Of a DNA stretch of 64,000 nt, positions 20,123 through 59,915 are shown in pieces. The notes below the pieces were generated by a model. That model worked only from the letters and a program-made list of their open reading frames with translations. It was not told the origin of the DNA and made no database searches. The stretch comes from Candidatus Nomurabacteria bacterium (GTDB lineage: Bacteria; Patescibacteriota; Minisyncoccia; Phycocordibacterales; UBA9973), in contig JAPLXQ010000010.1 in NCBI GenBank assembly GCA_026395995.1, positions 69,296 to 133,295 on the forward strand. The letters run 5' to 3'. The position numbers were made by a program, and so were the translations under genes. How positions within the stretch are numbered: position 1 is the stretch's first letter; each line of letters begins with the position of its first letter.

Positions 20123-20128
20123 AAATTG

Positions 20129-20215
20129 CGGAGGATGTGAGATTCGAACTCACGGACCCTTTTACAGGTCGGCGGTTTAGTAAACCGCTAGTTTAAACCA
20201 CTCACTCAATCCTCC
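20129..20215 (-). tRNA. type II (long variable arm) Ser-like tRNA with anticodon loop UUACUAA (anticodon ACU, i.e. A34)
   Basis: Acceptor GGAGGAT/ATCCTCC, D-loop with GG, anticodon stem GCGGU/ACCGC, long variable arm, T-arm GTGAG-TTCGAAT-CTCAC, discriminator G. Same architecture as the tRNA-Ser(GCU) copies but G34 to A. Confidence 0.55.
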
Positions 20216-21313: not shown

Positions 21314-21402
21314 GGAACCGTGTCTGAGCGGTCTAAGGTACCTCTTTGCTAAAGAGGCAGGGGCTTTAAAACCCCTCGCGAGTTCGAATCTCGCCGGTTC
21401 CG
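21314..21402 (+). tRNA. tRNA-Ser(GCU), copy 1
   Basis: Acceptor GGAACCG/CGGTTCC, anticodon arm CCTCT-TTGCTAA-AGAGG, long variable arm, T-loop TTCGAAT, discriminator G. Confidence 0.75.
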
Positions 21403-21423
21403 CAACAAATCTAAACCCAAATC

Positions 21424-23885: not shown

Positions 23886-23974
23886 TGGAACCGTGTCTGA
23901 GCGGTCTAACGTACCTCTTTGCTAAAGAGGCAGGGGCTTTAAAACCCCTCGCGAGTTCGAATCTCGCCGGTTCC
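23886..23974 (+). tRNA. tRNA-Ser(GCU), copy 2 (2 mismatches to copy 1)
   Basis: 89 nt, same cloverleaf as 21314..21402. Differs only at taaggt/taacgt in the D-region. Confidence 0.75.
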
Positions 23975-24012
23975 GCTTGTAATAATTTTATACATTTAAC
24001 GGCAATAATAAT

Positions 24013-45288: not shown

Positions 45289-45822
45289 ATGAATCTTTTT
45301 CTAAAAATATTTAAGACTTCAAAAAATTTAATTTCTGTAAAAGATATTAATTCTGAAAAAACAGAAATAATTGAAGTTGGTGAAAAAATAAATAAAAAAA
45401 TAAAAAAACTATTTAATGGTTCTTTGGCTATTCGGCAAGTAGATGCTGGTTCAGATAATGCTTGTGAACAAGAACTTGTTGCGCTATCAAATGCTTTTTA
45501 TGACGTTGAGCGTTTTGGTATACATTTTGTAGCTTCTCCAAGACATGCCGATATGCTCATGGTTACTGGTCCTGTAACACGTAATATGGCTGAAGCCCTA
45601 AAAAGGGCATATGAAGCGACACCAGAACCAAAAATAATAATTGCTGTCGGAGATGATGCAATAAATGGTGGTATATATAAAGATTCTTATGCTGTTGTTG
45701 GTGGTGTTGATTCTGTGATACCTGTTCATTATCAAATTCCTGGTGATCCACCAAGTCCAAAAGTTATTTTATTTCATCTTTTAAATATTCTTGAAATTAT
45801 TGAGAATAAAAAATTAATTTAA
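45289..45822 (+). CDS. NuoB / group-4 [NiFe]-hydrogenase small-subunit homologue lacking three of the four [4Fe-4S] Cys ligands
   Basis: SPRHADMLMVTGPVTRNMAEAL ... EPKIIIAVGDDAINGG ... PGDPPSP. CC(A/V)E becomes ACEQE, GxCxxxGG becomes GDDAINGG, PGCPP becomes PGDPP. Confidence 0.7.
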   Translation: MNLFLKIFKTSKNLISVKDINSEKTEIIEVGEKINKKIKKLFNGSLAIRQVDAGSDNACEQELVALSNAFYDVERFGIHFVASPRHADMLMVTGPVTRNMAEALKRAYEATPEPKIIIAVGDDAINGGIYKDSYAVVGGVDSVIPVHYQIPGDPPSPKVILFHLLNILEIIENKKLI

Positions 45823-45827
45823 ATATT

Positions 45828-47876
45828 ATGATAAATTTTATTACATCAGAATTTAGTTTTGAGATTTTGTTTTTACTTTTTAGTGTTGGGGCTATTGGTT
45901 CTCTGTTTTTAAATAAAAACGACAAATTGGCAAACTTCTGGAGTAGTTTCTTTTCAATCAGTAGCTCTATTTGGGGTTTGATAATATCTATCTGTGCTAT
46001 TTCTTTTGGACAAGATCTTCTTTTTTCTGTAGGTCATTCAGTCTTCTCTGTTTTTTCAGTGTCTTTTCATGTTGATAAATTATCTGCTTTTTTTATCTTT
46101 ATAATTTCTTTAATTTCTTTGTTTTGTTCTATTTATGGTATTGGTTATGTAAAGCATTTTTATAAAAAATATAATATTGGTGCTTTAGGGTTCTTTTATA
46201 ATACTTTTATTTTAGGAATGTTACTCGTCGTCTCATCTTCCAATGGAATATTTTTCCTTTTAGCTTGGGAATTGATGTCTCTAGCTTCTTATTTCCTTGT
46301 TGTTTACGATAGAAATGATGAAGAAAATATAAAAGCTGGTTTTTTATATTTTATAATGACTCATGTCGGTACTGCTTTTATTATATTGGCATTATTATTG
46401 TTGTATAAATTTACAGGCTCATTTGATTTTGATATTGTTAAATCAAACATGGGATTAGTTCCTCTATATATTAAAAATCTTGTTTTTATATTCTCAATAA
46501 TTGGTTTTGGCACAAAAGCAGGTATTGTACCTTTCCATGTTTGGCTTCCTAGCGCTCACCCAGCAGCACCTTCACATGTTTCAGCTTTAATGTCTGGGGT
46601 GATGATCAAGACAGGTATTTTTATGATGATCAAAATTTTTCTTGATATTCTTCAGCCAGTACCTGTTTGGTGGGGGCTTACTATTTTAGTTATTGGTTCT
46701 GTCTCTTCTTTGCTTGGAGTTTTATATGCACTTACAGAACATGATTTAAAAAGACTTTTGGCTTATCATAGTATTGAAAATATTGGTATTATTTTGCTTG
46801 GTCTTGGTAGTGCTCTTACTTTTACATCTCTCGGTTTACCAGCATTAGCATTACTTGGTCTTATTGCTGCACTTTTTCACACATTAAACCATGCCACATT
46901 TAAATCATTACTTTTCCTTAGTGCTGGTTCAGTAATTAGTCAAACACACACTAGAAATATGGAAGAATTTGGTGGTCTTATAAAATACATGCCACAGACA
47001 GCCTTCTTCTTTTTAATTGGTTCAATGGCGATATCAGCACTTCCTCCTTTTAATGGATTCTTTAGTGAATGGTTAACTTTTCAATCACTTTTCCAAGGTA
47101 TAATGTCCTTAGATTTTTATTCTAAAGGAATTTTTATTTTTGCAGTTGGTTCATTAGCCTTTACTGGGGGATTAGCTTTAGCTTGTTTCGTAAAAGCATT
47201 TGGTGCTACATTTTTAGCTCGTCCTAGAAGTGAAGAGGTTAAACATGCTAAAGAATCTTCCTTCTCTTTACTTTTTGGTATGGGAGCTTTAGCTTTATTG
47301 TCTTTAGTATTTGGTATTTTTTCTGGATACTTGGGATCTTTTTTTGAAAAGATAGCTAAGAGTTTTACTTTTGCTCAAAATGTTTTTTATCCATCTTTCT
47401 CTACTGACTCTATGTTAAAAGTCGGTAACAGTTTCTCTTCTGTTTCAGCCCCAGCTATTTTTATATTTTTTGCTATTATCTTTTTAATTGTTATTTTTGT
47501 GACTAAGTTTTTGATTAATAGAAATCAAAAAGTAACTATAAATTCTACTTGGGATTGTGGTACAGATTTGACTCCACGTATGGAAATTACTGCGACAGGA
47601 TTTTCTAGATCTATTATTGTTATTTTAAAAGGAATACTTCGACCAAATATTAAAAAAGAAATAGTATATAATGATGCCGGTAGTAAATATCTACCAAAAT
47701 CACGTTTTGTTATTTTGAGTATTAAAGATATATATCAAGCATATTTTTACACACCCTTACATAAAATTACAACTTTCCTTTCTTTGCAGATAAAAAAGAT
47801 ACAAAATGGAAATGTAAATTCTTATATTTTGTATATCTTTTTTGCATTAATAGTCACTTTATTTTTAGCGATATAA
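45828..47876 (+). CDS. NuoL/MrpA/HyfB-like antiporter-type membrane subunit
   Basis: LLAWELMSLASYFLV and VPFHVWLPSAHPAAPSHVSALMSGVMIKTG motifs. 682 aa. Confidence 0.7.
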   Translation: MINFITSEFSFEILFLLFSVGAIGSLFLNKNDKLANFWSSFFSISSSIWGLIISICAISFGQDLLFSVGHSVFSVFSVSFHVDKLSAFFIFIISLISLFCSIYGIGYVKHFYKKYNIGALGFFYNTFILGMLLVVSSSNGIFFLLAWELMSLASYFLVVYDRNDEENIKAGFLYFIMTHVGTAFIILALLLLYKFTGSFDFDIVKSNMGLVPLYIKNLVFIFSIIGFGTKAGIVPFHVWLPSAHPAAPSHVSALMSGVMIKTGIFMMIKIFLDILQPVPVWWGLTILVIGSVSSLLGVLYALTEHDLKRLLAYHSIENIGIILLGLGSALTFTSLGLPALALLGLIAALFHTLNHATFKSLLFLSAGSVISQTHTRNMEEFGGLIKYMPQTAFFFLIGSMAISALPPFNGFFSEWLTFQSLFQGIMSLDFYSKGIFIFAVGSLAFTGGLALACFVKAFGATFLARPRSEEVKHAKESSFSLLFGMGALALLSLVFGIFSGYLGSFFEKIAKSFTFAQNVFYPSFSTDSMLKVGNSFSSVSAPAIFIFFAIIFLIVIFVTKFLINRNQKVTINSTWDCGTDLTPRMEITATGFSRSIIVILKGILRPNIKKEIVYNDAGSKYLPKSRFVILSIKDIYQAYFYTPLHKITTFLSLQIKKIQNGNVNSYILYIFFALIVTLFLAI

Positions 47877-47878
47877 AT

Positions 47879-48805
47879 ATGAATATTTTAATTTGGATAA
47901 TTCAAATAGTTTTTATACCAATAATGTCACCATTGTGTGTCGGTATTATTAGAAAAATAAAAGCCAAACTTCAAAATAGAAAAGGGGCTAGTATTTTTCA
48001 ACCATATAATGATTTATGGAAACTCTTTAATAAAGATGAAGTTATCAGTAAAGATGCTTCTTGGGTTTTTAGATATGCCCCTTTTGTTATTTTTTCAGTG
48101 ACTATCTTTGTCGGTATGAGTGTTCCAATTTTTATGTCTTTTGTAAACAACACTTTTACTAGTGACATATTGGTAATTATTTATATGCTTGCATTGGGAA
48201 CATTTTTCTTGGCTCTTTCTGGTTTAGATACAGGTGGAGCTTTTGGTGGTTTTGGTTCAAGTCGTGAAATGACTATGTCTGCTTTAGCAGAAGGTGGTTT
48301 TATCTTCTCTCTTTTAACAATTTCTTTCATAGCTGGTACTACCAATCTATTGGCTATTTCTAATGTTGGAATTCTTCAACATGGACATTTGCTACTTTCA
48401 TCTATATTGGCTTTTATATCATTCTTCATAATATTATTAGCAGAAAATACAAGATATCCTTTTGATAATCCGTCTACTCACTTGGAATTAACTATGATTC
48501 ATGAAGCTATGATTTTAGAATATTCTGGAAAAAGATTAGCTCTTATTGAATGGGCATCTTCAAATAAACTTTTAATTTTTATTTCTTTGGGCTCCAGTTT
48601 GTTTTTCCCTTGGGGTATAGCTGGGGCACTTAGTTTAAGTGCGTTACTTTTCGGTTTATTTATTTTTTGTTTAAAGGTATTTATTTTTTGTTTAGCAATA
48701 GCTGTATTGGAATCAAGTATAGCAAAATTGCGATTCTTTAAATTACCTGATTTATTGTTGATAGCCTTTATTCTTAATGTGATAGCAATTATTTTAATTT
48801 TTTAA
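47879..48805 (+). CDS. NuoH/HyfC/EchB-like membrane subunit
   Basis: ENTRYPFDNPSTHLELTMIHEAMILEYSG conserved loop. Confidence 0.7.
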   Translation: MNILIWIIQIVFIPIMSPLCVGIIRKIKAKLQNRKGASIFQPYNDLWKLFNKDEVISKDASWVFRYAPFVIFSVTIFVGMSVPIFMSFVNNTFTSDILVIIYMLALGTFFLALSGLDTGGAFGGFGSSREMTMSALAEGGFIFSLLTISFIAGTTNLLAISNVGILQHGHLLLSSILAFISFFIILLAENTRYPFDNPSTHLELTMIHEAMILEYSGKRLALIEWASSNKLLIFISLGSSLFFPWGIAGALSLSALLFGLFIFCLKVFIFCLAIAVLESSIAKLRFFKLPDLLLIAFILNVIAIILIF

Positions 48806-48807
48806 TT

Positions 48808-49455
48808 ATGAATATTTTATTTTATACAATTTTGCCGGAGATAGTTTTATTAAGTATTATTTCTTTACATTTAGTAAAGAAAAATAGTGAGATGGTCTTT
48901 CTTTATGGTTTTCAATCAATCGCAATTGTTTTAATGTTGTTTTGTTCGTTTTTAACGACAGGTAAACTTTCTTTGTTATTGGTTACGGTTGTTGTATTAC
49001 TTGCCAAGGTAATATTAGCACCATTATTTTTTAATAAATTAATTTTAAAACACAAGCTGGTTTTTTCTGTAAAAAAGTATGTTAATACATCTTTTAGTTT
49101 GGTAATTATAGCTATTTTAATTATCACAGCTTATTCAGATAAATTTACTTCATTAACAAATATTATTCCAGCAAATCACGCATCGCTATCTCTAGCATTT
49201 TCTGCAATGTTATTGTCTTTGTTTTTGATTGTGAATAGTAGGGGAGCATTGTCTCAAATTGTAGCCATTCTTTCTTTGGAAAATAGTATTGTCGCTTTTG
49301 CTGTTTTTGCAGAACTAGAACAATCTGCTGGTTTGCAAATAGGTATAGTTTTTGATATCTTTGTTTGGATGATAGTAGCAACAATGTTTGTTTCAATGAT
49401 TCAAAAGCATTTCGGGTCGATTGACGTTACTTCAATGAAAAACCTAAAAGATTAA
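48808..49455 (+). CDS. HyfE-like small membrane subunit
   Basis: About 215-aa polytopic protein in the HyfE position. Confidence 0.45.
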   Translation: MNILFYTILPEIVLLSIISLHLVKKNSEMVFLYGFQSIAIVLMLFCSFLTTGKLSLLLVTVVVLLAKVILAPLFFNKLILKHKLVFSVKKYVNTSFSLVIIAILIITAYSDKFTSLTNIIPANHASLSLAFSAMLLSLFLIVNSRGALSQIVAILSLENSIVAFAVFAELEQSAGLQIGIVFDIFVWMIVATMFVSMIQKHFGSIDVTSMKNLKD

Positions 49456-49459
49456 ATTT

Positions 49460-50902
49460 ATGGAATTATTATTTATTTTTACATTTTTATTACTTGCTTC
49501 ACTTATTGGCCTCTTTACTAAAAAGAGATTATTTATTGAGTTTGTTTCTGTTTTTGCTTCTATTTTTGCTTTGTTTGGGTCAATCAACGTTGCTATGAAG
49601 GTAGTAGCTCTTGGTTCTTATAGTCCATTTAGTTTTTTATATGTTGAATCTTTTGGAGCAGTTTTACTACTTATTATTTCTTTGATTGGTTTGTCAACGA
49701 CTGTTTATTCTATACAATATCTTCGTCAAGAAAGTGCTAAAAATATTATTGGACCTGCTAGAGTTAGACAGTATTTTGTCTTGTTGAATTTATTTATTCT
49801 TTTTATGTTTTTAGCAACAACAGTAAATAGTCCAATTTTTAGTTGGATTTTTATTGAGGCTACAACATTATCGACTGTTTTTCTTATTAGTTTTTATAAT
49901 AAATCATCTTCAGTTGAGGCTGCTTGGAAATATCTAGTAGTGAACTCTGTTGGATTATTATTTGGTTTCTTTGGAACACTTTTATATTTTACTTCTTTAC
50001 ATTCCGTTGATAATGGTTCAATCGTTAGTTGGAATGGTCTTTTGAATGGCGCAACAAGCCTCGATCCTGTTATTGCCAAAATAGCTTTCATATTCGTCTT
50101 GATTGGTTATGGTGCTAAAGTGGGTCTTGCACCTATGCATACATGGAAGCCAGATGCTTATAGTAAGGCCCCAACACCGCTAGGAGCATTGTTTTCAGGT
50201 GCTTTGTTGCCGGTGGCTTTTGTAACTATTTTAAAATTTAAAACAATAACTGATACTGTTGTTGGTTTGTCATTTAGTCAAAATCTACTTATTTTATTTG
50301 GAACACTATCTGTTTTTATCTCAGCCTTTATTATTTTTTCTTCTAGAAATTATAAAAGACTATTAGCTTATTCTGGTATAGAAAATGCTGGAATTATGGC
50401 TCTCGGTTTTGGTTTTGGTGGGTTGGGTATTTTTGCTGGAACCTTACATATGATTTATCATTCTTTGATTAAATCTGCTCTTTTCTTTTGCTCAGGTAAT
50501 TTTTTATTGAAATATGGTTCAGCAAAAATAAAAAATATTAGAGGTGCTATAAATGTCCTTCCTTTCACTAGTGTTGTTTTTGTTGTTGGATTTTTGGCCT
50601 TGATTGGTATGCCACCATTTGGTGTATTTTTTACAAAGTTAACAATTCTTTCTGCTGGAATAAAAAATCATCAATTGTTTTCAATAGTTCTTATTTTCCT
50701 AGTCTCTCTTTTGTTTATTGGTTTTTTGAAACATGTGACTGCTATGGTTTTTGGAAAAAAACCAGAGGACATGTCTATTAAAAAAGAGAGTGTTTGGTTG
50801 ATCATTCCACCATTAGTATTGATTGGTGTTGTTATTTGTTTAAGTTTTTATATACCACCATTTTTATATACCTTATTTAATAATATAGTTTTACATTACT
50901 AA
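49460..50902 (+). CDS. NuoN/NuoM/HyfF-like antiporter-type membrane subunit
   Basis: GLAPMHTWKPDAYSKAPTPLGALFSGALL motif. Confidence 0.7.
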   Translation: MELLFIFTFLLLASLIGLFTKKRLFIEFVSVFASIFALFGSINVAMKVVALGSYSPFSFLYVESFGAVLLLIISLIGLSTTVYSIQYLRQESAKNIIGPARVRQYFVLLNLFILFMFLATTVNSPIFSWIFIEATTLSTVFLISFYNKSSSVEAAWKYLVVNSVGLLFGFFGTLLYFTSLHSVDNGSIVSWNGLLNGATSLDPVIAKIAFIFVLIGYGAKVGLAPMHTWKPDAYSKAPTPLGALFSGALLPVAFVTILKFKTITDTVVGLSFSQNLLILFGTLSVFISAFIIFSSRNYKRLLAYSGIENAGIMALGFGFGGLGIFAGTLHMIYHSLIKSALFFCSGNFLLKYGSAKIKNIRGAINVLPFTSVVFVVGFLALIGMPPFGVFFTKLTILSAGIKNHQLFSIVLIFLVSLLFIGFLKHVTAMVFGKKPEDMSIKKESVWLIIPPLVLIGVVICLSFYIPPFLYTLFNNIVLHY

Positions 50903-50903
50903 T

Positions 50904-52478
50904 ATGAATAAAGAAATAATAAAAAATTATATACCAGAAAATACAAAAGTAGATTTTGTTGGAAATATTGCTCTTGTAAAAGTTGAAGCAGTAAATATTT
51001 TAGAAATTGCTAATGATTTATATAATCATAAAAATCTTCCGCTTAAACTCGTTACAGCGACAGATGAAAGGTTTGAAAATGGATGTTTTAAAATTTGGTA
51101 TATTTTTGGAATTCCAAAAGAAAATATTTTTATAGCCTTATTTATTGAACTTAAGAATATTGAGGAATTCCCATCAATAGTCTCAGTTGTTTTTGAGGCT
51201 GGTAACTATGAAAGAAAAATAAAAACTTTTTTCGGTCTTACTCCAGCAGGGGCTTTTGATACAAGGCCAATAATTTTACATGAAAATTGGCCAATTGATG
51301 TTTTTCCACTTCGAAAAGATTTTAATTTACAAACAAAAGTAAAACAATCAACTGGAACATATGAATTTCAAAGAGTTGATGGTGAGGGTATTTATGAGAT
51401 TCCTGTCGGTCCAATTCATGCTGGTATTATAGAACCTGGTCATTTTCGATTTAGTGTCGCTGGAGAAGAAATAATGCTCTTAGAAGCAAGACTTGGTTTT
51501 GTGCATAAAAGTATAGAAAAAATATTTGAATCAGAAATATCAATAGATGAAAAAATAAAACTTTCTGAAAAAATTTCAGGAGATAGTTCTTTCTCTTATT
51601 CTGCTGCTTTTTGTCGATCGATAGAAAATTTAGCTGGAATTGAAGTTTCTAAAAGAGCTGAGTATTTGCGTGCTATTTATTCTGAATTAGAAAGATTAAC
51701 AAATCATTTTGGCGATGTTGGTGCTATGATGCTAGATACAGGGTTTAATTTTGGTGGAGCAAACGGTTCTCGTTTACGTGAGATAGTTATGCAACTAAAT
51801 GAAAGACTTACTGGTAGTAGGTTTTTGCGTGGAGTAAATGTCGTAGGTGGTGTGACTAAAGATATAGATTTAAATGAAAAACAAATTTTATTAAACAACC
51901 TTGAAAAGATATTTAAAGATTTTGAAGAAGTTATTGAAGTAGTAGAAAGTAAAATTTCTTTATTGAATCGTTTACGAGGAACTGGAGCTATTACTCATAC
52001 TATTGCTAAAGATTTTGGAGTGCTGGGTGTACCTGCTAGGGCTGTAGGCATTGAAAATGATACACGTTTAGATTTTCCATATAGTGTGTATCAAGAATTA
52101 GATTTTAGTAAAGCTGAAGTTCAAACTACAGGAGATGTATATGCTCGTTTCTATGTTCGAATAAAAGAAATTCGTACTTCATTTAACCTTATTGAAAAAG
52201 CCCTAATCAATTTACCAGAAGGAAAAATAAATTCATCATTAGATAAAATAGTTTTAAAGAAGAATTCTGTAGTTATTACCCTTGTGGAGGGGTGGAGAGG
52301 GGAAATAGCATATTTCATTACTACCGATTTAAATGGAAATATTAGTAGAGTTTATCCTCGTGATCCATCTTTTCTAAACTGGTCAGCCGTCGGCTGTGCT
52401 GGTCCTGGCAATGTCGTTCCAGATTTCCCACTCATAAACAAAAGCTTCAATCTTTCTTATACAGGAAATGATTTGTAA
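50904..52478 (+). CDS. fused NuoC-NuoD / hydrogenase large-subunit homologue with NiFe-binding Cys motifs replaced
   Basis: PVGPIHAGIIEPGHFRF and IENLAGIEVSKRAEYLRAIYSELERL are conserved. The L1 motif RxCGxCxxxH is ISGDSSFSY. The C-terminal DPCxxCxxH-equivalent is NKSFNLSYTGNDL. Confidence 0.7.
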   Translation: MNKEIIKNYIPENTKVDFVGNIALVKVEAVNILEIANDLYNHKNLPLKLVTATDERFENGCFKIWYIFGIPKENIFIALFIELKNIEEFPSIVSVVFEAGNYERKIKTFFGLTPAGAFDTRPIILHENWPIDVFPLRKDFNLQTKVKQSTGTYEFQRVDGEGIYEIPVGPIHAGIIEPGHFRFSVAGEEIMLLEARLGFVHKSIEKIFESEISIDEKIKLSEKISGDSSFSYSAAFCRSIENLAGIEVSKRAEYLRAIYSELERLTNHFGDVGAMMLDTGFNFGGANGSRLREIVMQLNERLTGSRFLRGVNVVGGVTKDIDLNEKQILLNNLEKIFKDFEEVIEVVESKISLLNRLRGTGAITHTIAKDFGVLGVPARAVGIENDTRLDFPYSVYQELDFSKAEVQTTGDVYARFYVRIKEIRTSFNLIEKALINLPEGKINSSLDKIVLKKNSVVITLVEGWRGEIAYFITTDLNGNISRVYPRDPSFLNWSAVGCAGPGNVVPDFPLINKSFNLSYTGNDL

Positions 52479-53776: not shown

Positions 53777-56770
53777 ATGTCAGACATATTTACTGAAAAA
53801 TATAAAGCTTTAAATAAAGCCCAGAAAGAAGCTGTGGAATTTATAGATGGACCAGTGATGGTCGTCGCAGGGCCGGGAACAGGTAAAACTCAAGTCCTCG
53901 CTCTTCGCATAGGACATATTCTAAAAGAAACTGATACAAAAGCAGACAGTATTCTTTGTCTTACTTTTACCAATTCTGGAGTGAAAGCAATGAAGAAAAG
54001 ACTCGAAGAATATATAGGTACCGATGTAAATAATGTAAAAATTTCTACTTTCCATGCTTTTGCTATCAAACTCGTCGAAGATAATTATGAACTTTTGGAT
54101 TTTAAAAGAATGCCAAAATTGCTCGAAGATGACGAGGCTGTTTTTCTCGCAGATGAGATAATGCAAAACAATACTTGGGAATATTTGCGTCCTCGTTCAA
54201 ATCCGACGATGTATTTCAATGATTTGAAAAGTCTCATTTCAGTTTTAAAGAGAGAGCGCCTAACACCTGAAGAATTTTTGAAAGAAGTTGAACATGATAT
54301 TAAGTTTTTTAAAAATGATCCAGATAGTATTTCTACTCGTGGAGAAAGTAAGGGAAAATTAAAAAAAGAAATAGAGAAAAAAATAGAATCACTAGAACGC
54401 ACTCGTGAAGTTGTGGAATTTTATCGTATTTATGAAGAGAGAAAAAGGGAAGAGAATCTGATGGATTATGATGATGTTTTAGAATATGCAGTAAAACTCG
54501 TAGAAGAATATGAAGATGTTCGCGCTAGTGTTTACGAAGATTATTTATATGTATTAGTGGATGAACATCAGGATTCGAGTGGTGTGCAAAATAATTTCTT
54601 GAAAGCTGTTTGGAAAGATACAGAGAAGCCAAATATTTTCGTAGTGGGGGATGACAGGCAATTGATTTATGCTTTTTCTGGTGCAAAGCTTTCATATTTT
54701 GAAGAATTTGCACACTTCTTTGGTAAAGCGAAATTAATAATTCTCACAGAGAATTATCGTTCCACTACACCGATTCTCGCTCTCGCTGATAATTTACTCA
54801 GTAGTTCTATTACGAAAGAAAAATTAAATTCCAATACAAAGGGTGAAGAAAAAATATTACTGAATGAATATAGTTATCCGAGAGATGAGATAATCGGTGC
54901 AGGTTTGTATTTCAAAAATAAAATAGCAGAATCAACTGATAGAGATAAAATGAAACCAGAAGACTGTGCGATATTAGTGCCGAAGAATTTCCATGTTCGC
55001 ACAGCTATACAAATACTGGGAGATATGGGTTTGCCTGTTTCGACTGGTAAAAGTATGTCACTTTTTAATGTAAAAGAGACATATAGCTTTTTGCGAGTTT
55101 TAAATATTATCACTGAGCCTTTTAATTCTGTATTCCTGTCAGAAAGTTTACTCGATAAGACTAGCGGAGTAAGTCCTTTTGAAGCACATAAATTTTTGAA
55201 AACTTTAAAGCCAGATAGGATGACTATCGATGATTTGATAAACAATGGTGGTGGAGATGGGCTTTTTGCGGGGGAGAATGATATTTCAAAATGGGGTAAG
55301 GTTTTAAAATCTTGGACAGAATTAGCGAATGACAAACTCTCTATTATTGTGAGTAAAATAGGTAATGAACTTCTGATAGATAATTCCAAGACTCATACTG
55401 AGCTTTTGAAAAATGTCGAAGTGGTTCGTAGCTTTATTCATACTGCGATGATTTTTGAGCAAAAACATAACAACGCAAGTTTGAAAGATTTTATAGAATA
55501 TTTTAAGAGATTAGAAACTTATGGTAATCATATTACACTAGCTACTTTTGAATCTGATAATGGTATCCAAGTAATGACACTTCATAAGTCAAAAGGTTTG
55601 GAATATAAAAATGTCTGGATTGCACATATGAATGAAGAAGTTTTAATGTCTGAAAAGAGAAATGGTTTTACGCTTCCTGAAAAAGTAAAAGAGCACATAC
55701 ACGAGCGTGATATTGAAAATGCGAAGAGGGAACTCTATGTAGCCATAACCCGTGCGAAGGAGAATTGTATTATTTCACATGCAAATGAAAGCTATAATGG
55801 GGCGCAAATGGAACTCGCTCAAATAATTCGTGAATTACCTGGTACACATTTTGTTAAAAAAGAAAAAGAAGAAACAGAAAAAGAAATAATGGCAGGCGAG
55901 AGTGGAGTAAAAATATATACAAATATCGTTGAGAAAAAAGAAGGGAAGATCATTGATGAAATTAAAGATTTTGCACGAGAAAATTATAAAAATACGAAAG
56001 TTACAGTCACACTTCTCAATAACTTTTTTGAATGTCCTTGGAAATGGTATTTTAGAAATTTTTTGAAATTACCTGAAGTAAAAGGTACATCACTTGCTCT
56101 CGGTTCTGCTGTTCACTCTACTATAGAATTTATTTTGAAAAATAAAGAATTGCCGAGTGATAAAGTAATTAAAGAAAAAATACAAGAATCTTTAAATAAA
56201 GAAGGAGTTCAAGATGAGAAAGAGATTAAAACTTTAGCGAAAGATGCAGAAAAAGCTATTAAAAATTGGATTGATAATTATTATGCTAATTTAGCAAAAG
56301 ATTACAGTTCAGAGCGCTCCGTGCAATTCACCGATCCAAAATATCCTGATTTGCTTATGTATGGAAAGCTCGATTTGACAGAGAGAGAAAATGGAAATAT
56401 TACAATTACTGATTTTAAAACTGGTAAACCAAAAACAAAAAGTGAAATTGAAAAGATTGACGAAGAGGGTAGACTCTCTGGCTATATGCGCCAGCTCGCT
56501 ATGTATTCATATCTCGTGGCGGGAGCAGAACGTGGAAAGAGTGTAGAAAGTTCACGACTTCTTTTTCTCGAAGCAAAAGAAGATGATAAGAATGCTTTGT
56601 ATTCTATACACATAGACGAAGAAAAAATTGATTTATTAAAGCGTGACATTTCAGACTATGTTAAAAATCTCGAAACTGGAGAATGGACAAATTTAGAATG
56701 CCACTACAAACCTTGGGGAAGTAGTAAGGATGAGTGTGAATATTGCGCACTCGCTAAAAAGATTATTTAG
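53777..56770 (+). CDS. UvrD/PcrA-type SF1 helicase fused to a C-terminal Cas4/AddB-like PD-(D/E)xK nuclease with Cys4 cluster
   Basis: Walker A AGPGTGKTQVL and DExQD (VLVDEHQDSS). Nuclease core DLTERENG ... ITDFKTGKP ... RQLAMYSY. Cys ligands in FECPWKWY ... CHYKPWGSSKDECEYC. Confidence 0.75.
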   Translation: MSDIFTEKYKALNKAQKEAVEFIDGPVMVVAGPGTGKTQVLALRIGHILKETDTKADSILCLTFTNSGVKAMKKRLEEYIGTDVNNVKISTFHAFAIKLVEDNYELLDFKRMPKLLEDDEAVFLADEIMQNNTWEYLRPRSNPTMYFNDLKSLISVLKRERLTPEEFLKEVEHDIKFFKNDPDSISTRGESKGKLKKEIEKKIESLERTREVVEFYRIYEERKREENLMDYDDVLEYAVKLVEEYEDVRASVYEDYLYVLVDEHQDSSGVQNNFLKAVWKDTEKPNIFVVGDDRQLIYAFSGAKLSYFEEFAHFFGKAKLIILTENYRSTTPILALADNLLSSSITKEKLNSNTKGEEKILLNEYSYPRDEIIGAGLYFKNKIAESTDRDKMKPEDCAILVPKNFHVRTAIQILGDMGLPVSTGKSMSLFNVKETYSFLRVLNIITEPFNSVFLSESLLDKTSGVSPFEAHKFLKTLKPDRMTIDDLINNGGGDGLFAGENDISKWGKVLKSWTELANDKLSIIVSKIGNELLIDNSKTHTELLKNVEVVRSFIHTAMIFEQKHNNASLKDFIEYFKRLETYGNHITLATFESDNGIQVMTLHKSKGLEYKNVWIAHMNEEVLMSEKRNGFTLPEKVKEHIHERDIENAKRELYVAITRAKENCIISHANESYNGAQMELAQIIRELPGTHFVKKEKEETEKEIMAGESGVKIYTNIVEKKEGKIIDEIKDFARENYKNTKVTVTLLNNFFECPWKWYFRNFLKLPEVKGTSLALGSAVHSTIEFILKNKELPSDKVIKEKIQESLNKEGVQDEKEIKTLAKDAEKAIKNWIDNYYANLAKDYSSERSVQFTDPKYPDLLMYGKLDLTERENGNITITDFKTGKPKTKSEIEKIDEEGRLSGYMRQLAMYSYLVAGAERGKSVESSRLLFLEAKEDDKNALYSIHIDEEKIDLLKRDISDYVKNLETGEWTNLECHYKPWGSSKDECEYCALAKKII

Positions 56771-56829
56771 GAAAATAATAAAGCTAAAGCAAAATGTATT
56801 TTCTTTATGCAAAGCTTAGGAAAATAAAA

Positions 56830-56858
56830 ATCCCGTTGCAAGAACATTGCAACGGGAT
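56830..56858 (-). terminator. Rho-independent terminator (minus strand) directly after the 23S-like fragment
   Basis: Minus-strand CCCGTTGCAAtgttcTTGCAACGGG followed by ATTTTTATTTT. Confidence 0.6.
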
Positions 56859-57060
56859 TACCTGGGTACTTAGATGTTTCAGTTCTCCAGGGCAGTAAGA
56901 TCTATGGATCAAGTCGTAGTGTTCAATCCCCATAGCTTATCGTAAATGATTAAATCTACGTCCTACTATTAAATTTTTCGTGAGTAAGTTAAGTTTACTC
57001 CTGTCAAAGAACTATTTTTATTCTTCCAATCTTAACTTGGGTAATCTTCGTGCTTGTATT
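56859..57060 (-). rRNA. orphan 5-prime-domain fragment of 23S rRNA, truncated
   Basis: Minus-strand GATAAGCTATGGGGATTGAAC ... TTGATCCATAGATCTTACTGCCCTGGAGAACTGAAACATCTAAGTACCCAGG aligns to E. coli 23S positions about 60-200 (GAACTGAAACATCTAAGTACCC universal). No further 23S sequence follows. The upstream extent is uncertain. Confidence 0.5.
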
Positions 57061-57426
57061 GTTTCAATATTGTAGAGTTTTTGTTTAACCAAATCGGTTA
57101 ACTTTGTTCGGTAAACTAAACAAAAGTTTGTATACAGCCGGACTTTGTCTTAGTATGATTCCCAACGATGTATAGATCGTTACTAGGATTGACGCAGTTC
57201 ACATTGAAAGTAATACATCTTCAAAGTACCACTATTTAAAATAAAAATCAACTAGAAAAGACTAGGTCCGTTATCCATCCAGCCGAGAATAAGCCCTAAA
57301 AGGGTGAAAGTTATAATGAGTATTATTAAAAGATTGATATTCTTTTTCATAATTTAAGTATACTATAAAGTCTTGCAAATAAAGCCTTTTGCCGTTAATA
57401 TCATATGTATGTATAAAAAGGCTAAT

Positions 57427-58440
57427 ATGAAAAATAAAGAAGAGCTTTTGGCTGATTTAGCAAAAGAGAATTTTAAACGCCGAACTCTTTCTTTTTATAA
57501 ATATGTCAAAATAGAAAATCCAAAAGAAATGCGTGATATGCTTTTTGATAAACTTTCAGAGCTTAAATGTCTGGGTAGAATCTATGTCGCACATGAAGGT
57601 ATCAATGCGCAGATGAATGTACCTGAACACAATTGGGATGCTTTTAATTCTTTCTTACAAAATATTCCAGAATTCACAGGTGTACCATATAAATTCGCAG
57701 TAGAAGAAAAAGGTAGTAGTAGTTTTATAAAATTAATTATAAAAGTGCGAGAAAAAATTGTTGCTGATGGACTCGATGATAGTACTTTTGACCCGGCAAA
57801 TACAGGTGAATATGCTCTCGCAGAAGAAGTGAATGAAATGATAGATCGTGGTACGACAGTTATCGATATGCGAAATATTTACGAAGCAGCCATTGGTCAC
57901 TTTGAAAATGCAAAGATAATGAATGTCGATACTTTCCGAGAACAACTTCAAAAAGTGCAAGACATGTTCAAAGATAAAAAAGATGAAGAAGTTTTGCTAT
58001 ATTGTACTGGAGGAATTCGTTGTGAAAAAGCTTCTGCGTGGATGAAACATAATGGTTTTAAAAATGTGAAACATATAAAAGGTGGAATTATCGATTATGC
58101 TCACAGAGTAAAAGAATTAGGTTTACCAAATAAATTTAAAGGCAAGAATTTTGTCTTTGATGAGAGAATGGGGGAGAGAGTTGGCGATGAGATTATTTCT
58201 GCTTGTCAGATTTGTGAAAAGGAAAAGTCGGACGAATATATACACTGTAAAAATCTTTCTTGTCATATGTTATTCATATCTTGTAAAAAGTGTGAGAAAA
58301 ATTTAGATGGTTACTGTAGTCGCATTTGCCAAATTTGTGATAAATTTCCTAAAAAAGTAAATCAACTTTTTATCAATCGAAATCAACAAAAGCATTCAAA
58401 TCAATACAAGAAGAATTACAAGAGAACAAATGTGGTATAA
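57427..58440 (+). CDS. trhO: rhodanese-domain tRNA uridine(34) hydroxylase TrhO/YceA-like
   Basis: LSFYKY N-terminus, VAHEGINAQM, rhodanese loop LYCTGGIRCEKASAWMKHNGF and C-terminal Cys-rich tail. Confidence 0.65.
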   Translation: MKNKEELLADLAKENFKRRTLSFYKYVKIENPKEMRDMLFDKLSELKCLGRIYVAHEGINAQMNVPEHNWDAFNSFLQNIPEFTGVPYKFAVEEKGSSSFIKLIIKVREKIVADGLDDSTFDPANTGEYALAEEVNEMIDRGTTVIDMRNIYEAAIGHFENAKIMNVDTFREQLQKVQDMFKDKKDEEVLLYCTGGIRCEKASAWMKHNGFKNVKHIKGGIIDYAHRVKELGLPNKFKGKNFVFDERMGERVGDEIISACQICEKEKSDEYIHCKNLSCHMLFISCKKCEKNLDGYCSRICQICDKFPKKVNQLFINRNQQKHSNQYKKNYKRTNVV

Positions 58441-58721: not shown

Positions 58722-59915
58722 ATGACAAGTTTAGAAAAAGCAAAAATAGAAATCCCAAAAGAAAATCCAGATTTACCCATGCAATTAAAATTTGATGTTT
58801 CTTCATCTGAAACAATAGAAAAACTTTTGTCCGTAAAAGATTTAACTTTACCTACAGAAAATGGAGAAAGTAGAAATATTATCGGTAAAGTTTTTGACCA
58901 AGTAATTAAAAAATTAGAAGAACATAATTTTTCTGATATAAATGTTGTGCGAGGTAATCCTATTGTTCTAGCTAGTGATAACTTTGATAGTCTTTTATTT
59001 ACTCCAGGAAATCCTGGAAGGTCTGCGACTTATACTAGATATACTGACGAAGATCACGTTCTCCGTACTCATACCTCTGCACTTATTCCACAAACATTTA
59101 AAAATTTCAAAAAGGAAATTGATCGTTCTACTTTTGTTTTACCTGGGCTCGTATACAGAAGGGATGTTATCGATCCTAGGCATTTAGATGTTTTTCATCA
59201 GATAGATGTTTGGACTTTACAGGATAATAGTAAGTACGGAAAAGTAAATCGAGAAAATTTATTAGAATTAGCTAGAACTGTTTTCGAAGCTGCTTGTCCT
59301 GATGCTGAGATGATAGTCTATGAAGCGAAGCATCCATATACAGTTGATGGTATTGAAGTCTATGCAAAAGTAAATGGTGTAGAAATAGAAGTTTTTGAAG
59401 CAGGTCTCGCTCATCCAGAAGTTTTGAAAAATTGTGGTATTGATCCTGAAAATTATTCCGGTCTCGCTCTCGGTATGGGAGTGGAGAGATTAATAATGGC
59501 TAGAAAGAATTTACCAGACATTCGCCTCATACGTTCTACTGATCCGAGAATTATCAAACAAATGACTGATATGGAACCATATAAAAATGTTTCTAATCAG
59601 CCAGCTATTTCTCGTGACATGTCTTATATTGTGAATAAAAATGATTCTGAAGAAGATCTTTGCGAAGATATCAGAAATGTTTTCGGTGAACATGCTGATC
59701 TACTCGAAGAAGTAAAAATATTAGAGAGAACTCCTTTTGATAAATTGCATCCAGTAGCAAAAGAAAAACTCGGAGCAGTCGAAGGCCAAGATAATGTTTT
59801 GGTACGTATTATTCTTCGTCACCCTGATAAAACTTTAACTAAAAAAGAAGCCGCTGATTTGTATGAAATGGCTTATCCAAAACTTCACAAGGGAAGTACT
59901 CAAGGATATAAGTAG
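58722..59915 (+). CDS. monomeric (mitochondrial-type) phenylalanyl-tRNA synthetase-like protein: PheS class-II core fused to an FDX-ACB anticodon-binding domain
   Basis: VLRTHTSALIPQ, VLPGLVYRRDVIDPRHLDVFHQID, motif 3 GLALGMGVERLIMARKNLPDIRL, then a C-terminal FDX-ACB-like region (PAISRDMSYIV ... ILRHPDKTLTKKE). 397 aa. No pheT adjacent. Confidence 0.65.
   Translation: MTSLEKAKIEIPKENPDLPMQLKFDVSSSETIEKLLSVKDLTLPTENGESRNIIGKVFDQVIKKLEEHNFSDINVVRGNPIVLASDNFDSLLFTPGNPGRSATYTRYTDEDHVLRTHTSALIPQTFKNFKKEIDRSTFVLPGLVYRRDVIDPRHLDVFHQIDVWTLQDNSKYGKVNRENLLELARTVFEAACPDAEMIVYEAKHPYTVDGIEVYAKVNGVEIEVFEAGLAHPEVLKNCGIDPENYSGLALGMGVERLIMARKNLPDIRLIRSTDPRIIKQMTDMEPYKNVSNQPAISRDMSYIVNKNDSEEDLCEDIRNVFGEHADLLEEVKILERTPFDKLHPVAKEKLGAVEGQDNVLVRIILRHPDKTLTKKEAADLYEMAYPKLHKGSTQGYK

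What the first reader, a model, noticed from the sequence alone, without database searches (positions are those of the whole stretch)
56830..57060. Orphan 5-prime fragment of 23S rRNA with its own terminator (5.8S-like piece or relic)
On the minus strand, about 150-200 nt align convincingly to the 5-prime domain of 23S rRNA, including the universal GAACTGAAACATCTAAGTACCC block. The homology stops near position 200 and runs straight into a strong intrinsic terminator. There is no 16S, no remainder of 23S and no tRNA nearby. It may be a pseudogene fragment. It may instead be a separately encoded 5-prime 23S fragment (fragmented rRNA), which would be unusual but not unprecedented given the rRNA oddities reported in CPR genomes.
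Basis: seen in the sequence. Interest (0 to 1): 0.52.

Follow-up and report, generated by a model that had tools for sequence, protein, structure and literature searches.

The report
Cut-down 23S rRNA copy, not split rRNA
A short, dispensable copy of the start of the large ribosomal RNA gene sits alone in this candidate-phyla-radiation (CPR) bacterium. It keeps its rRNA-operon leader signal and has its own terminator. It is not the missing front end of the real gene, but relatives conserve longer versions so tightly that it may be an rRNA-mimicking small RNA.

Summary
On the minus strand only about 100 nt (56964-56898 and 56891-56862) are homologous to 23S. They correspond to helices H5-H7 and the H11-H12 hairpin. 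The first ~50 nt of 23S, H8-H10 and everything after position ~215 are absent, and Rfam's LSU model does not hit.

Upstream is a canonical rRNA-spacer boxA (57012-57002). Downstream is a strong intrinsic terminator (56859-56829).

The same unit sits at the same place (between a helicase-nuclease gene and trhO) in a few related Nomurabacteria/Paceibacteria genomes:
- Two relatives carry a long form (LSU positions 46-471). It is closed by an AU-rich leader/trailer stem and is 96% identical between genomes whose synonymous sites are saturated.
- Two relatives carry a short form like the window's.
- One close relative carries only the other half, partly decayed.
- One close relative has an empty site, and most relatives have nothing.

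It is therefore a dispensable, rRNA-operon-derived mini-gene, not a separately encoded essential 5' piece of 23S. Covariation, structure-sparing substitutions and an invariant loop argue for selection on an rRNA-mimic RNA. Neutral decay of the window copy cannot be excluded, and the genome's main 23S could not be retrieved.

The parts
57252..57350 (-). Small ORF (32 aa, MKKNINLLIILIITFTLLGLILGWMDNGPSLF). It lies upstream on the same strand as the rRNA-like unit and divergent from trhO. It is context and a possible shared transcript.
   Evidence: ORF list. A peptide with the GW(L/M)DNGP motif is found at the same place in L003, L004, L006, L007, L009, L020, L021, L023, L035 and L036, with or without the rRNA-like unit.
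57013..57251 (-). Spacer between the small ORF and boxA. It is strongly conserved with L003/L004 (its first ~60 nt are identical) and carries a 43-nt insertion in the window. Function unknown; it may be a promoter or leader.
   Evidence: Alignment A1 and blastn at 87-94% identity. TrhO four-fold sites are only 70-73% identical between the same genomes. The spacer is absent from the empty site in L217.
57002..57012 (-). boxA-like element GTTCTTTGACA, the antitermination signal normally found about 100 nt upstream of 23S in rRNA operons.
   Evidence: 86 of 103 real 23S loci have a match with at most 2 mismatches within 350 nt upstream (21 are exact; median distance ~100 nt). The background rate is 0.03 per 350 nt. 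The same motif precedes the fragments in L003, L004, L006, L020 and L031.
56982..57000 (-). Short hairpin GAGUAA-N7-UUACUC directly after boxA.
   Evidence: MFE and centroid fold. Not compared across relatives.
56893..56968 (-). Three-way junction equivalent to 23S H5, H6 and H7. H5 is lengthened to 8 bp (UAGUAGGA/UCUUACUG) and H6 to 7 bp, with the universal H6 loop replaced. The AUAAGC junction is kept.
   Evidence: 23S profile hit at 56964-56898. Fold. Rfam consensus structure for the homologous part of L006. Covariation in H6 and H7.
56861..56891 (-). Hairpin equivalent to 23S H11-H12. The stem is CCUGG/CCAGG and the loop carries the invariant block GAACUGAAACAUCUAAGUAC (56885-56866).
   Evidence: Profile hit with E 2.7e-7. 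A 30/30 match to real 23S genes. The stem covaries among relatives (CCUGG/CCAGG, UGCAG/CUGCA, UCUGG/UCAGA, UCCGG/CCGGA) while the loop is identical in 4 of 5 copies.
56821..56859 (-). Intrinsic terminator: a 13-bp stem (6 G-C pairs), a 5-nt loop, then UUUUUAUUUU.
   Evidence: Terminator scan and fold. Every relative's unit also ends in a terminator, but with a different stem sequence.
57238..57249 (-). GATTTTTATTTT, a 12-nt direct repeat of the terminator tail at 56832-56821. The two copies bracket the ~430-nt segment that is missing from the empty site in L217.
   Evidence: Read directly from the sequence and compared with L217. It may be only two T-rich tails; significance was not tested.

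Best explanation
**What it is.** The locus is a small, dispensable transcription unit derived from an rRNA operon. On the minus strand it runs: spacer boxA, a short hairpin, a cut-down piece of 23S domain I (the H5-H6-H7 three-way junction fused to the H11-H12 hairpin), then an intrinsic terminator. It belongs to a locus-specific family found in one Nomurabacteria/Paceibacteria subclade, between a UvrD/PD-(D/E)XK helicase-nuclease gene and trhO. It is not the missing 5' end of the cell's 23S rRNA.

**How it most likely works (inferred, not shown).**
- It is transcribed with or just after the upstream small ORF.
- boxA shields the untranslated transcript from premature termination, as it does in rRNA operons.
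- The RNA folds on its own. In the long forms an AU-rich leader/trailer stem resembles an rRNA processing stem.
- It displays the invariant H11-H12 loop, so it would act as a mimic or decoy of the 5' domain of 23S for whatever protein recognises that site in the ribosome. Candidates are an early-assembly large-subunit protein or an assembly factor.

**What is shown.** The anatomy, the synteny, the dispensability, and structure-preserving evolution.

**What is inferred.** Transcription, processing and the binding partner. The window's copy is a shortened member and may itself be drifting out of function.
For: **Anatomy.**

**Family at one syntenic site.** L006 and L020 carry LSU model positions 37-483 or 46-471 (223 bits) plus a terminator. 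L008 and L031 carry the short form.

**Selection on the long form.**
- L006 and L020 have saturated four-fold sites in trhO (44% identical) and an unalignable upstream spacer.
- The same two genomes are about 96% identical from boxA through roughly the first 265 aligned columns.
- They are about 93-95% identical in the trailer and terminator.
- In the rRNA-like part, all five single substitutions fall in loops or bulges and one double change is compensatory (CGU/ACG to CGC/GCG).
- A whole helix is swapped for another perfect hairpin.

**Autonomous fold.** A 14-23-bp closing stem joins leader and trailer.

**Covariation across five copies.** 94% of cells are paired, 13 of 24 pairs have changes on both sides, and 0 of 500 shuffles reach the observed value.

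**Uneven conservation in the window copy.** It is only 50-61% identical to the others overall, yet its 30-nt H11-H12 segment is 30/30 identical to real 23S genes.

**Not an essential ribosome part.**
- H1-H3 are absent.
- H18-H20 are removed in L006.
- The site is empty in L217 and carries a different half in L004.
- The unit is absent in about 34 related loci.
Against: - **No expression data.**
- **Main 23S never seen.** Repeated gene conversion from it cannot be excluded as the cause of the conservation and covariation.
- **Patchy distribution.** Among the window's close relatives there are three different states: 5' half, partly decayed 3' half, and deletion. This is what relaxed selection would give.
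- **Weak fold signal.** The window core folds only modestly better than shuffles (z -2.1; 7 of 200 shuffles fold as well).
- **Few sequences.** Only 5 to 8 copies from 4 lineages support the covariation, and that structure is inherited from real 23S anyway.
- **No partner or downstream target identified.**
Confidence: 0.5

Rival explanations
1. Neutral relic. An old extra or relocated 23S copy once sat at this site and is being whittled away by deletions. The window keeps a functionless stub that happens to retain the promoter-proximal boxA and the old operon terminator.
For: - The fragment's extent differs between lineages, and the site is empty in L217.
- L004's copy has a degraded helix region.
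- Most relatives have nothing there.
- The window copy fails Rfam and is 50-61% identical to the other copies.
- Its fold z-score is only -2.1.
- Internal deletions naturally leave both ends of a gene in place.
Against: - L006 and L020 are 96% identical across the unit, junctions and AU-rich leader/trailer included, while four-fold sites are saturated and the neighbouring spacer cannot be aligned.
- No substitution breaks a pair.
- A 30-nt segment is perfectly kept in a copy that is otherwise about half diverged.
- H5 and H6 are lengthened in the window.
- Many relatives join the helicase gene directly to the small ORF or trhO, so a full rRNA gene at this site is not the evident ancestral state.
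Confidence: 0.3
2. Conserved without function. The fragment is repeatedly overwritten by gene conversion from the genome's real 23S and its leader, which keeps it rRNA-like.
For: - The conservation pattern (invariant loop, covarying stems) mirrors that of real 23S.
- Contigs of three close relatives end at or inside this locus: L002, L003 (28 nt after boxA) and the contig carrying P0041. This is expected if the boxA/leader sequence is repeated elsewhere in the genome.
Against: - The deletion junctions unique to the fragments (leader joined to position ~46, position ~470 joined to the trailer, H10 and H14-15 trimmed) are themselves conserved between L006 and L020.
- The window's H6 loop and L031's C-to-A change inside the block differ from the near-invariant 23S sequence.
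- The short copies offer only ~30-70 nt of homology for conversion.
Confidence: 0.12
3. Genuine split rRNA. The piece is the separately encoded 5' part of 23S and assembles into the ribosome in trans (5.8S-like).
For: - It has a boxA, a processing-like closing stem and its own terminator, and the long form evolves at an rRNA-like slow rate.
- The main 23S was not seen, so its 5' end is unknown.
Against: - It lacks the H1-H3 strands needed to pair with the rest of 23S.
- The long form has about 10 mismatches at columns conserved at >=95% between E. coli positions 49 and 440, against a mean of 1.9 in real 23S genes (measured over E. coli positions 40-480), and it lacks H18-H20 in L006.
- Genomes with 93-96% identical TrhO carry the complementary half or nothing, which would require different main genes in near neighbours.
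- Surveys of CPR genomes report full-length ~2.8-kb 23S genes, one per genome (PMC9297842).
Confidence: 0.03
4. Assembly artefact. A chimeric join of an rRNA read path into this contig.
For: rRNA genes commonly break or tangle metagenome assemblies, and contig ends cluster at this locus in relatives.
Against: The same architecture at the same syntenic place appears in independent assemblies from different studies: L006, L008, L020, L031 and L218. The unit has lineage-specific deletions and its own terminator, which a chimera would not create.
Confidence: 0.02

Closest known systems
Naturally fragmented large-subunit rRNAs (eukaryotic 5.8S; Chlamydomonas chloroplast 7S/3S; bacterial 23S cut at intervening sequences in H9, H25 or H45). 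Cited from general knowledge.
   Same: It is a short RNA corresponding to the 5' part of 23S. The long relatives have flanking complementary sequences that resemble a processing stem.
   Different: - Those pieces sit next to the rest of the gene and are co-transcribed with it, keep the strands that pair with the main rRNA, and are universal within their lineage.
- This one sits alone, lacks H1-H3, has internal deletions, and is absent or different in close relatives.
Orphan or partial rRNA gene fragments (rRNA pseudogenes) in bacterial genomes
   Same: It is a truncated copy of an rRNA gene away from any operon, with variable extent and presence or absence between relatives.
   Different: The long form evolves far more slowly than neutral DNA, with structure-sparing and compensatory changes. 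The unit also keeps boxA, a closing stem and a terminator.
rRNA-mimicking leaders of ribosomal-protein operons (for example the L20, L10, L1 and S15 leaders). Cited from general knowledge.
   Same: It is an RNA outside the ribosome that reproduces a local rRNA structure, which in those cases is a protein-binding site.
   Different: Those are 5' UTRs of the regulated ribosomal-protein mRNA and resemble rRNA only locally, by convergence or a short motif. This one is a stand-alone terminated RNA with true sequence homology to 23S and no ribosomal-protein gene downstream.
rRNA-operon boxA / Nus-factor antitermination leader
   Same: The exact motif GTTCTTTGACA occurs as in the spacers of real operons.
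   Different: Here it precedes a ~150-nt RNA that ends in an intrinsic terminator, not a 2.8-kb rRNA. Binding of NusB/NusE was not tested.

Membership tests
Bacterial LSU rRNA gene (Rfam RF02541) | Reaches the family's gathering score against the covariance model | tested here: not met
   The window gives no LSU hit at the gathering threshold or at E<=10. The relatives L006 and L020 do reach it, but only for model positions 37-483 of 2925.
Bacterial LSU rRNA gene (Rfam RF02541) | Contains domains II-VI, including the peptidyl-transferase centre | tested here: not met
   No other 23S similarity exists in the 64-kb window or within 10 kb of the fragment in relatives.
Split or fragmented LSU rRNA (5.8S-like separate 5' piece) | The piece keeps the strands (H1-H3 and similar) that pair it with the rest of the rRNA | tested here: not met
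   Homology starts near E. coli position ~50. Conserved columns 13-48 are all mismatched.
Split or fragmented LSU rRNA (5.8S-like separate 5' piece) | The main gene lacks exactly the part carried by the piece | not testable with these tools
Split or fragmented LSU rRNA (5.8S-like separate 5' piece) | Present, with the same content, in all close relatives (essential) | tested here: not met
   L217 (93% TrhO identity) has an empty site. L004/L003 (96%) carry a different half. L219, L220 and about 34 other loci have none.
Neutral rRNA pseudogene | Evolves at about the neutral rate, with helices breaking down | tested here: inconclusive
   Not met for the long form: 96% identity against 44% at four-fold sites, with no broken pairs. 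L004 shows decay. The window copy has no near-identical comparator, and its z-score is -2.1.
rRNA-operon boxA antitermination element | Consensus motif in a leader or spacer upstream of the rRNA sequence | tested here: met
   GTTCTTTGACA at 57012-57002. The same or a near-same motif lies upstream of 86 of 103 real 23S genes.
rRNA-operon boxA antitermination element | Bound by NusB/NusE and modifies RNA polymerase | not testable with these tools
   This needs biochemistry.
Ribosomal-protein autoregulatory leader (rRNA mimic) | Lies in the 5' UTR of a ribosomal-protein gene or operon | tested here: not met
   The unit ends in a terminator and faces the 3' end of a convergent helicase-nuclease gene. 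The neighbours are trhO, pheS-like and gyrB.
Intrinsic (Rho-independent) terminator | G+C-rich stem-loop followed by a U-run | tested here: met
   A 13-bp stem with 6 G-C pairs and a 5-nt loop, followed by TTTTTATTTT.

The most novel reading that the evidence does not exclude
A previously undescribed family of stand-alone RNAs in CPR bacteria that mimic 23S domain I. They are born from the rRNA operon (boxA, processing stem, minimised H5-H7 and H11-H12, terminator). They are kept by selection to bind and titrate a large-subunit protein, an assembly factor or the Nus antitermination machinery, so coupling ribosome production to supply. The same invariant H11-H12 loop, presented in a hairpin, also occurs next to a homing-endonuclease gene on a T4-like viral contig (L212). 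That hints the loop alone is a recognisable module.
Probability: 0.3. Interest if true: 0.75.

Novelty: new variant of a known kind. Interest (0 to 1): 0.5.

Why it matters
Orphan rRNA fragments are usually dismissed as junk or annotation noise. Here one retains its operon leader signal, folds on its own, and in sister genomes is conserved like a real gene.

If it is a functional mimic of the 5' domain of 23S, it would be a new way for very small genomes to regulate ribosome assembly or rRNA transcription. It would also be a natural minimal model of the H5-H7 and H11-H12 sites.

There are two practical consequences:
- Partial LSU hits in CPR assemblies need not mean split or missing rRNA genes.
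- This locus is a recurrent break point in assemblies.

Tried and rejected
- **Rfam on the window.** The whole window at gathering and the region at E<=10 gave no LSU hit.
- **blastn to E. coli.** Only 28-34 nt match.
- **Metagenome scan.** The pattern CCYGGAGAACTGAAACATCTAAGTACCCRG returned 120 ordinary full 23S genes from diverse bacteria and no fragments or close relatives.
- **Spurious-ORF route to the clade's real 23S.** I searched with the open antisense frame of L006's fragment. It found only distant 23S genes (Bacteroidota and two unplaced ones), at most 79% identical to the fragment.
- **Supplement of PMC9297842.** The supplementary rRNA alignments are not held.
- **Viral scans.** The stem-plus-block pattern gave 0 hits. 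AGTAGTGGTGAGCGAAA hit only unrelated, non-rRNA sequence. The 20-nt block hit two rRNA contaminants and one real hairpin, L212.
- **Cultured-phage collection.** Only host-rRNA contaminants matched.
- **Protein-coding reading of the intergenic region.** Rejected: only chance ORFs of 42 aa or fewer.
- **TTGACA inside the boxA motif as a -35 promoter box.** Rejected: there is no -10 at 16-18 nt in any copy (read directly; one search lists none).
- **L004's GCGAAAGCGAGTC motif as a domain II piece.** Rejected: it aligns to the H18-H20 region of L020.
- **Extra contig look-ups of TrhO relatives.** They added one empty site, two loci with no element and one duplicate of the L020 lineage, but no close comparator for the window's short form.

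Full report
**Setting.** The window is a low-GC chromosome segment (about 29-39% G+C across 2-kb windows) from a Candidatus Nomurabacteria / Paceibacteria (CPR) bacterium, judged from the titles of the closest genome contigs. The finding lies in a 602-nt intergenic region, 56771-57372. On one side is a 997-aa UvrD-type helicase with a PD-(D/E)XK nuclease domain (53777-56770, +). On the other is a TrhO-like rhodanese gene (57373-58440, +). Everything of interest is on the minus strand.

**Checking the observation.** The block GAACTGAAACATCTAAGTACCC is at 56885-56864. A 13-bp G+C-rich stem-loop with a T-run follows at 56859-56829. It is the only terminator-like site in 56000-58000. Rfam finds three tRNAs and no rRNA in the 64 kb, and no LSU match in the region even at E<=10. 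ARAGORN lists four tRNAs, the nearest 13 kb away. Against E. coli only 28-34 nt match, at 23S positions 183-210.

It hits the window at exactly two colinear places: 56964-56898 (E 1.3e-3, about E. coli 50-115) and 56891-56862 (E 2.7e-7, about E. coli 183-212). True homology is therefore about 100 nt in two blocks, not 150-200 nt. The first ~50 nt of 23S and helices H8-H10 are missing, and nothing follows position ~215.

**Anatomy.**
- Thirty-seven nucleotides upstream of the homology lies GTTCTTTGACA (57012-57002). This is the spacer boxA of rRNA operons. In 86 of 103 real 23S loci a match with at most 2 mismatches lies within 350 nt upstream of the gene (21 exact, median distance ~100 nt), against a background of 0.03 per 350 nt.
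- The RNA from boxA to the terminator is predicted to fold into four elements: a small hairpin (57000-56982); a three-way junction (56968-56893); the H11-H12 hairpin (56891-56861); and the terminator.
- The three-way junction corresponds to H5, H6 and H7 of 23S, judged by comparison with the Rfam structure line for a relative. Relative to rRNA, H5 is lengthened to 8 bp and H6 to 7 bp, and the universal H6 loop is replaced.
- Without the terminator, the core folds only modestly better than shuffles (z -2.1).
- No ORF longer than 42 aa crosses the region.
- Upstream on the same strand is a conserved 32-aa hydrophobic ORF (57350-57252).

**Relatives.** A scan with TrhO returned 39 Patescibacteria loci, and contig look-ups added four more. 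The rRNA-like unit occurs at the same syntenic place in only a few of them.
- **Long form (L006, L020, and L218, which duplicates the L020 lineage).** It matches LSU model positions 37-483 or 46-471 at 214-223 bits with almost every pair canonical. H10 is trimmed, and in L006 H18-H20 are cut out. The core is enclosed by a 14-23-bp AU-rich stem between leader and trailer, followed by a hairpin and a terminator.
- **Short form (L008, L031).** These resemble the window.
- **Other half (L003, L004; 96% TrhO identity to the window).** They share the small ORF, spacer and boxA. After boxA, L004 carries a different piece, homologous to E. coli ~245-450 of L020. Its last helix region is degraded and its terminator stem is different. 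The downstream flank is again homologous to the window's. L003's contig ends 28 nt after boxA.
- **Empty site (L217; 93% identity).** The small ORF's stop codon is joined directly to that downstream flank.
- **No element.** L219, L220 and most other loci join the helicase gene or another gene directly to the small ORF or trhO.
- The covariance model built from the five copies finds no second copy in the window or in any related locus.

**Is it an essential piece of a split 23S? No.**
- The piece lacks the strands that would pair it with the rest of the molecule.
- The long form is missing the H18-H20 platform in L006, and its rate of mismatch at near-universal positions is several times that of real 23S genes.
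- Near relatives carry complementary halves or nothing. Their main 23S genes must therefore be complete, and by parsimony so is this genome's.
- Published surveys find full-length ~2.8-kb 23S genes, about one per genome, across CPR (PMC9297842; PMC11270868).
- I could not retrieve the main 23S itself, so the direct test remains open.

**Is it a neutral relic? Not simply.**
- L006 and L020 differ at 56% of four-fold sites in trhO, which is saturation, and their spacers upstream of boxA cannot be aligned.
- From boxA onward the same two genomes are about 96% identical over ~265 columns and about 93-95% identical in the trailer and terminator. This includes the AU-rich, non-rRNA parts and the deletion junctions.
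- Read against the Rfam structure, the single substitutions in the rRNA-like part all fall in loops or bulges. One double change is compensatory (CGU/ACG to CGC/GCG). One helix is replaced wholesale by a different perfect hairpin.
- Across the five copies, 94% of cells are paired and 13 of 24 pairs show changes on both sides. No shuffle out of 500 and no slid register comes close.
- The window copy is only 50-61% identical to the others overall, yet its 30-nt H11-H12 segment is identical to real 23S genes.
- These are marks of selection on an RNA, or of repeated gene conversion from the real 23S. Conversion is hard to reconcile with the conserved fragment-specific junctions, but I cannot exclude it.

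**Counter-evidence.** The family is patchy. Among the window's close relatives there are three different states: a 5' half, a decaying 3' half and a deletion. That looks like relaxed selection there. The window copy may be a member on its way out.

**Most likely mechanism (inferred).**
- The unit is a dispensable rRNA-operon-derived RNA gene.
- boxA lets RNA polymerase traverse an untranslated, structured transcript.
- The RNA folds autonomously, and the long forms are probably trimmed at the closing stem as rRNA precursors are.
- It presents the invariant H11-H12 loop, with H5-H7, as a mimic of the 5' domain of 23S to a protein that normally reads that site.
- I cannot name the partner. Which large-subunit proteins contact H5-H7 and H11-H13 I know only from memory and did not test.

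**Side observation bearing on this.** One T4-like viral contig (L212) carries only this loop, with the block and its inner stem bases identical to real 23S over 25 nt. It sits atop an ~18-bp hairpin followed by a T-run, between a structural-looking gene and a homing-endonuclease gene. No cultured phage record shows it apart from host-rRNA contaminants.

**Verdict.** The sequence feature is real, smaller than described, and not a split-rRNA piece. It is an orphan, cut-down 23S domain-I unit with boxA and a terminator, and it belongs to a small syntenic family whose long members are clearly under constraint. My estimates:
- selected rRNA-mimic RNA: about 0.5;
- neutral relic: about 0.3;
- conserved by gene conversion only: about 0.1;
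- split rRNA or assembly artefact: 0.05 or less.

Noticed in passing
L212 ~9000-9070 (+) (IMGVR_UViG_3300050014_001170, 60 kb, GC 0.31): A T4-like viral contig (clamp loader, exonuclease) has a ~18-bp hairpin whose loop is the 23S block (GGAGAACTGAAACATCTAAGTACCCGG), followed by a T-run. It lies just after a gene end and just before a homing-endonuclease gene. Nothing else on the locus resembles 23S.
   Followed up: partly
window 57252-57350 (-): A 32-aa hydrophobic ORF ending in GWMDNGPSLF is conserved divergent from trhO in many related genomes, with or without the rRNA-like unit. Its last ~45 nt and the following TTGATTTTT are identical between L006 and L020, although the rest of the ORF differs.
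   Followed up: partly
window 57190-57251 (-): The ~60 nt after the small ORF's stop codon are 100% identical in the window, L003 and L004, while four-fold sites of the adjacent trhO are only ~72% identical. This is an unexplained conserved non-coding stretch. No Rfam hit and no promoter-like site were reported there.
   Followed up: no
window 21314-21403 and 23887-23976 (+); also 20128-20215 (-): Two full-length tRNA-Ser(GCT) genes differ by 1 nt and lie 2573 nt apart. Only the tRNA itself is repeated, and three ORFs lie between the copies. ARAGORN alone also calls a tRNA-Ser(ACT) on the other strand, which Rfam does not report.
   Followed up: partly
window 58722-59915 (+): This 397-aa protein combines the PheS catalytic core (tRNA-synt_2d) with an FDX-ACB anticodon-binding domain, and no separate PheT gene is next to it. 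L220 has the same arrangement. The relatives L217 and L218 instead have separate PheS-like (235-262 aa) and PheT-like (404-607 aa) genes at this position. It resembles the single-chain mitochondrial type of PheRS.
   Followed up: no
window 50904-52478 (+): This 524-aa protein fuses the Complex1_30kDa and Complex1_49kDa (NuoC/NuoD-like) domains. It stands at the end of a long same-strand gene row (about 45289-52478). From memory, CPR genomes usually lack respiratory complexes, so this would be unexpected. It may be a hydrogenase-type module.
   Followed up: no
L002, L003, L004 and the contig carrying P0041 (relatives of the window locus): Contigs of several close relatives end inside or right next to this intergenic region, at 172, 355, 773 and 11 nt from trhO. 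L003 ends 28 nt after boxA. This suggests a repeat (the real rRNA leader?) or strain variation that breaks assemblies here.
   Followed up: partly
L217 735-860 (-): The empty-site relative has a tandem duplication of a ~55-nt unit (AAGYTTTGCATAAAGAAAATAYATTTCGCTTTCGCTTYATTATTTTCCT). This is the same sequence as the flank that follows the terminator in the window.
   Followed up: no
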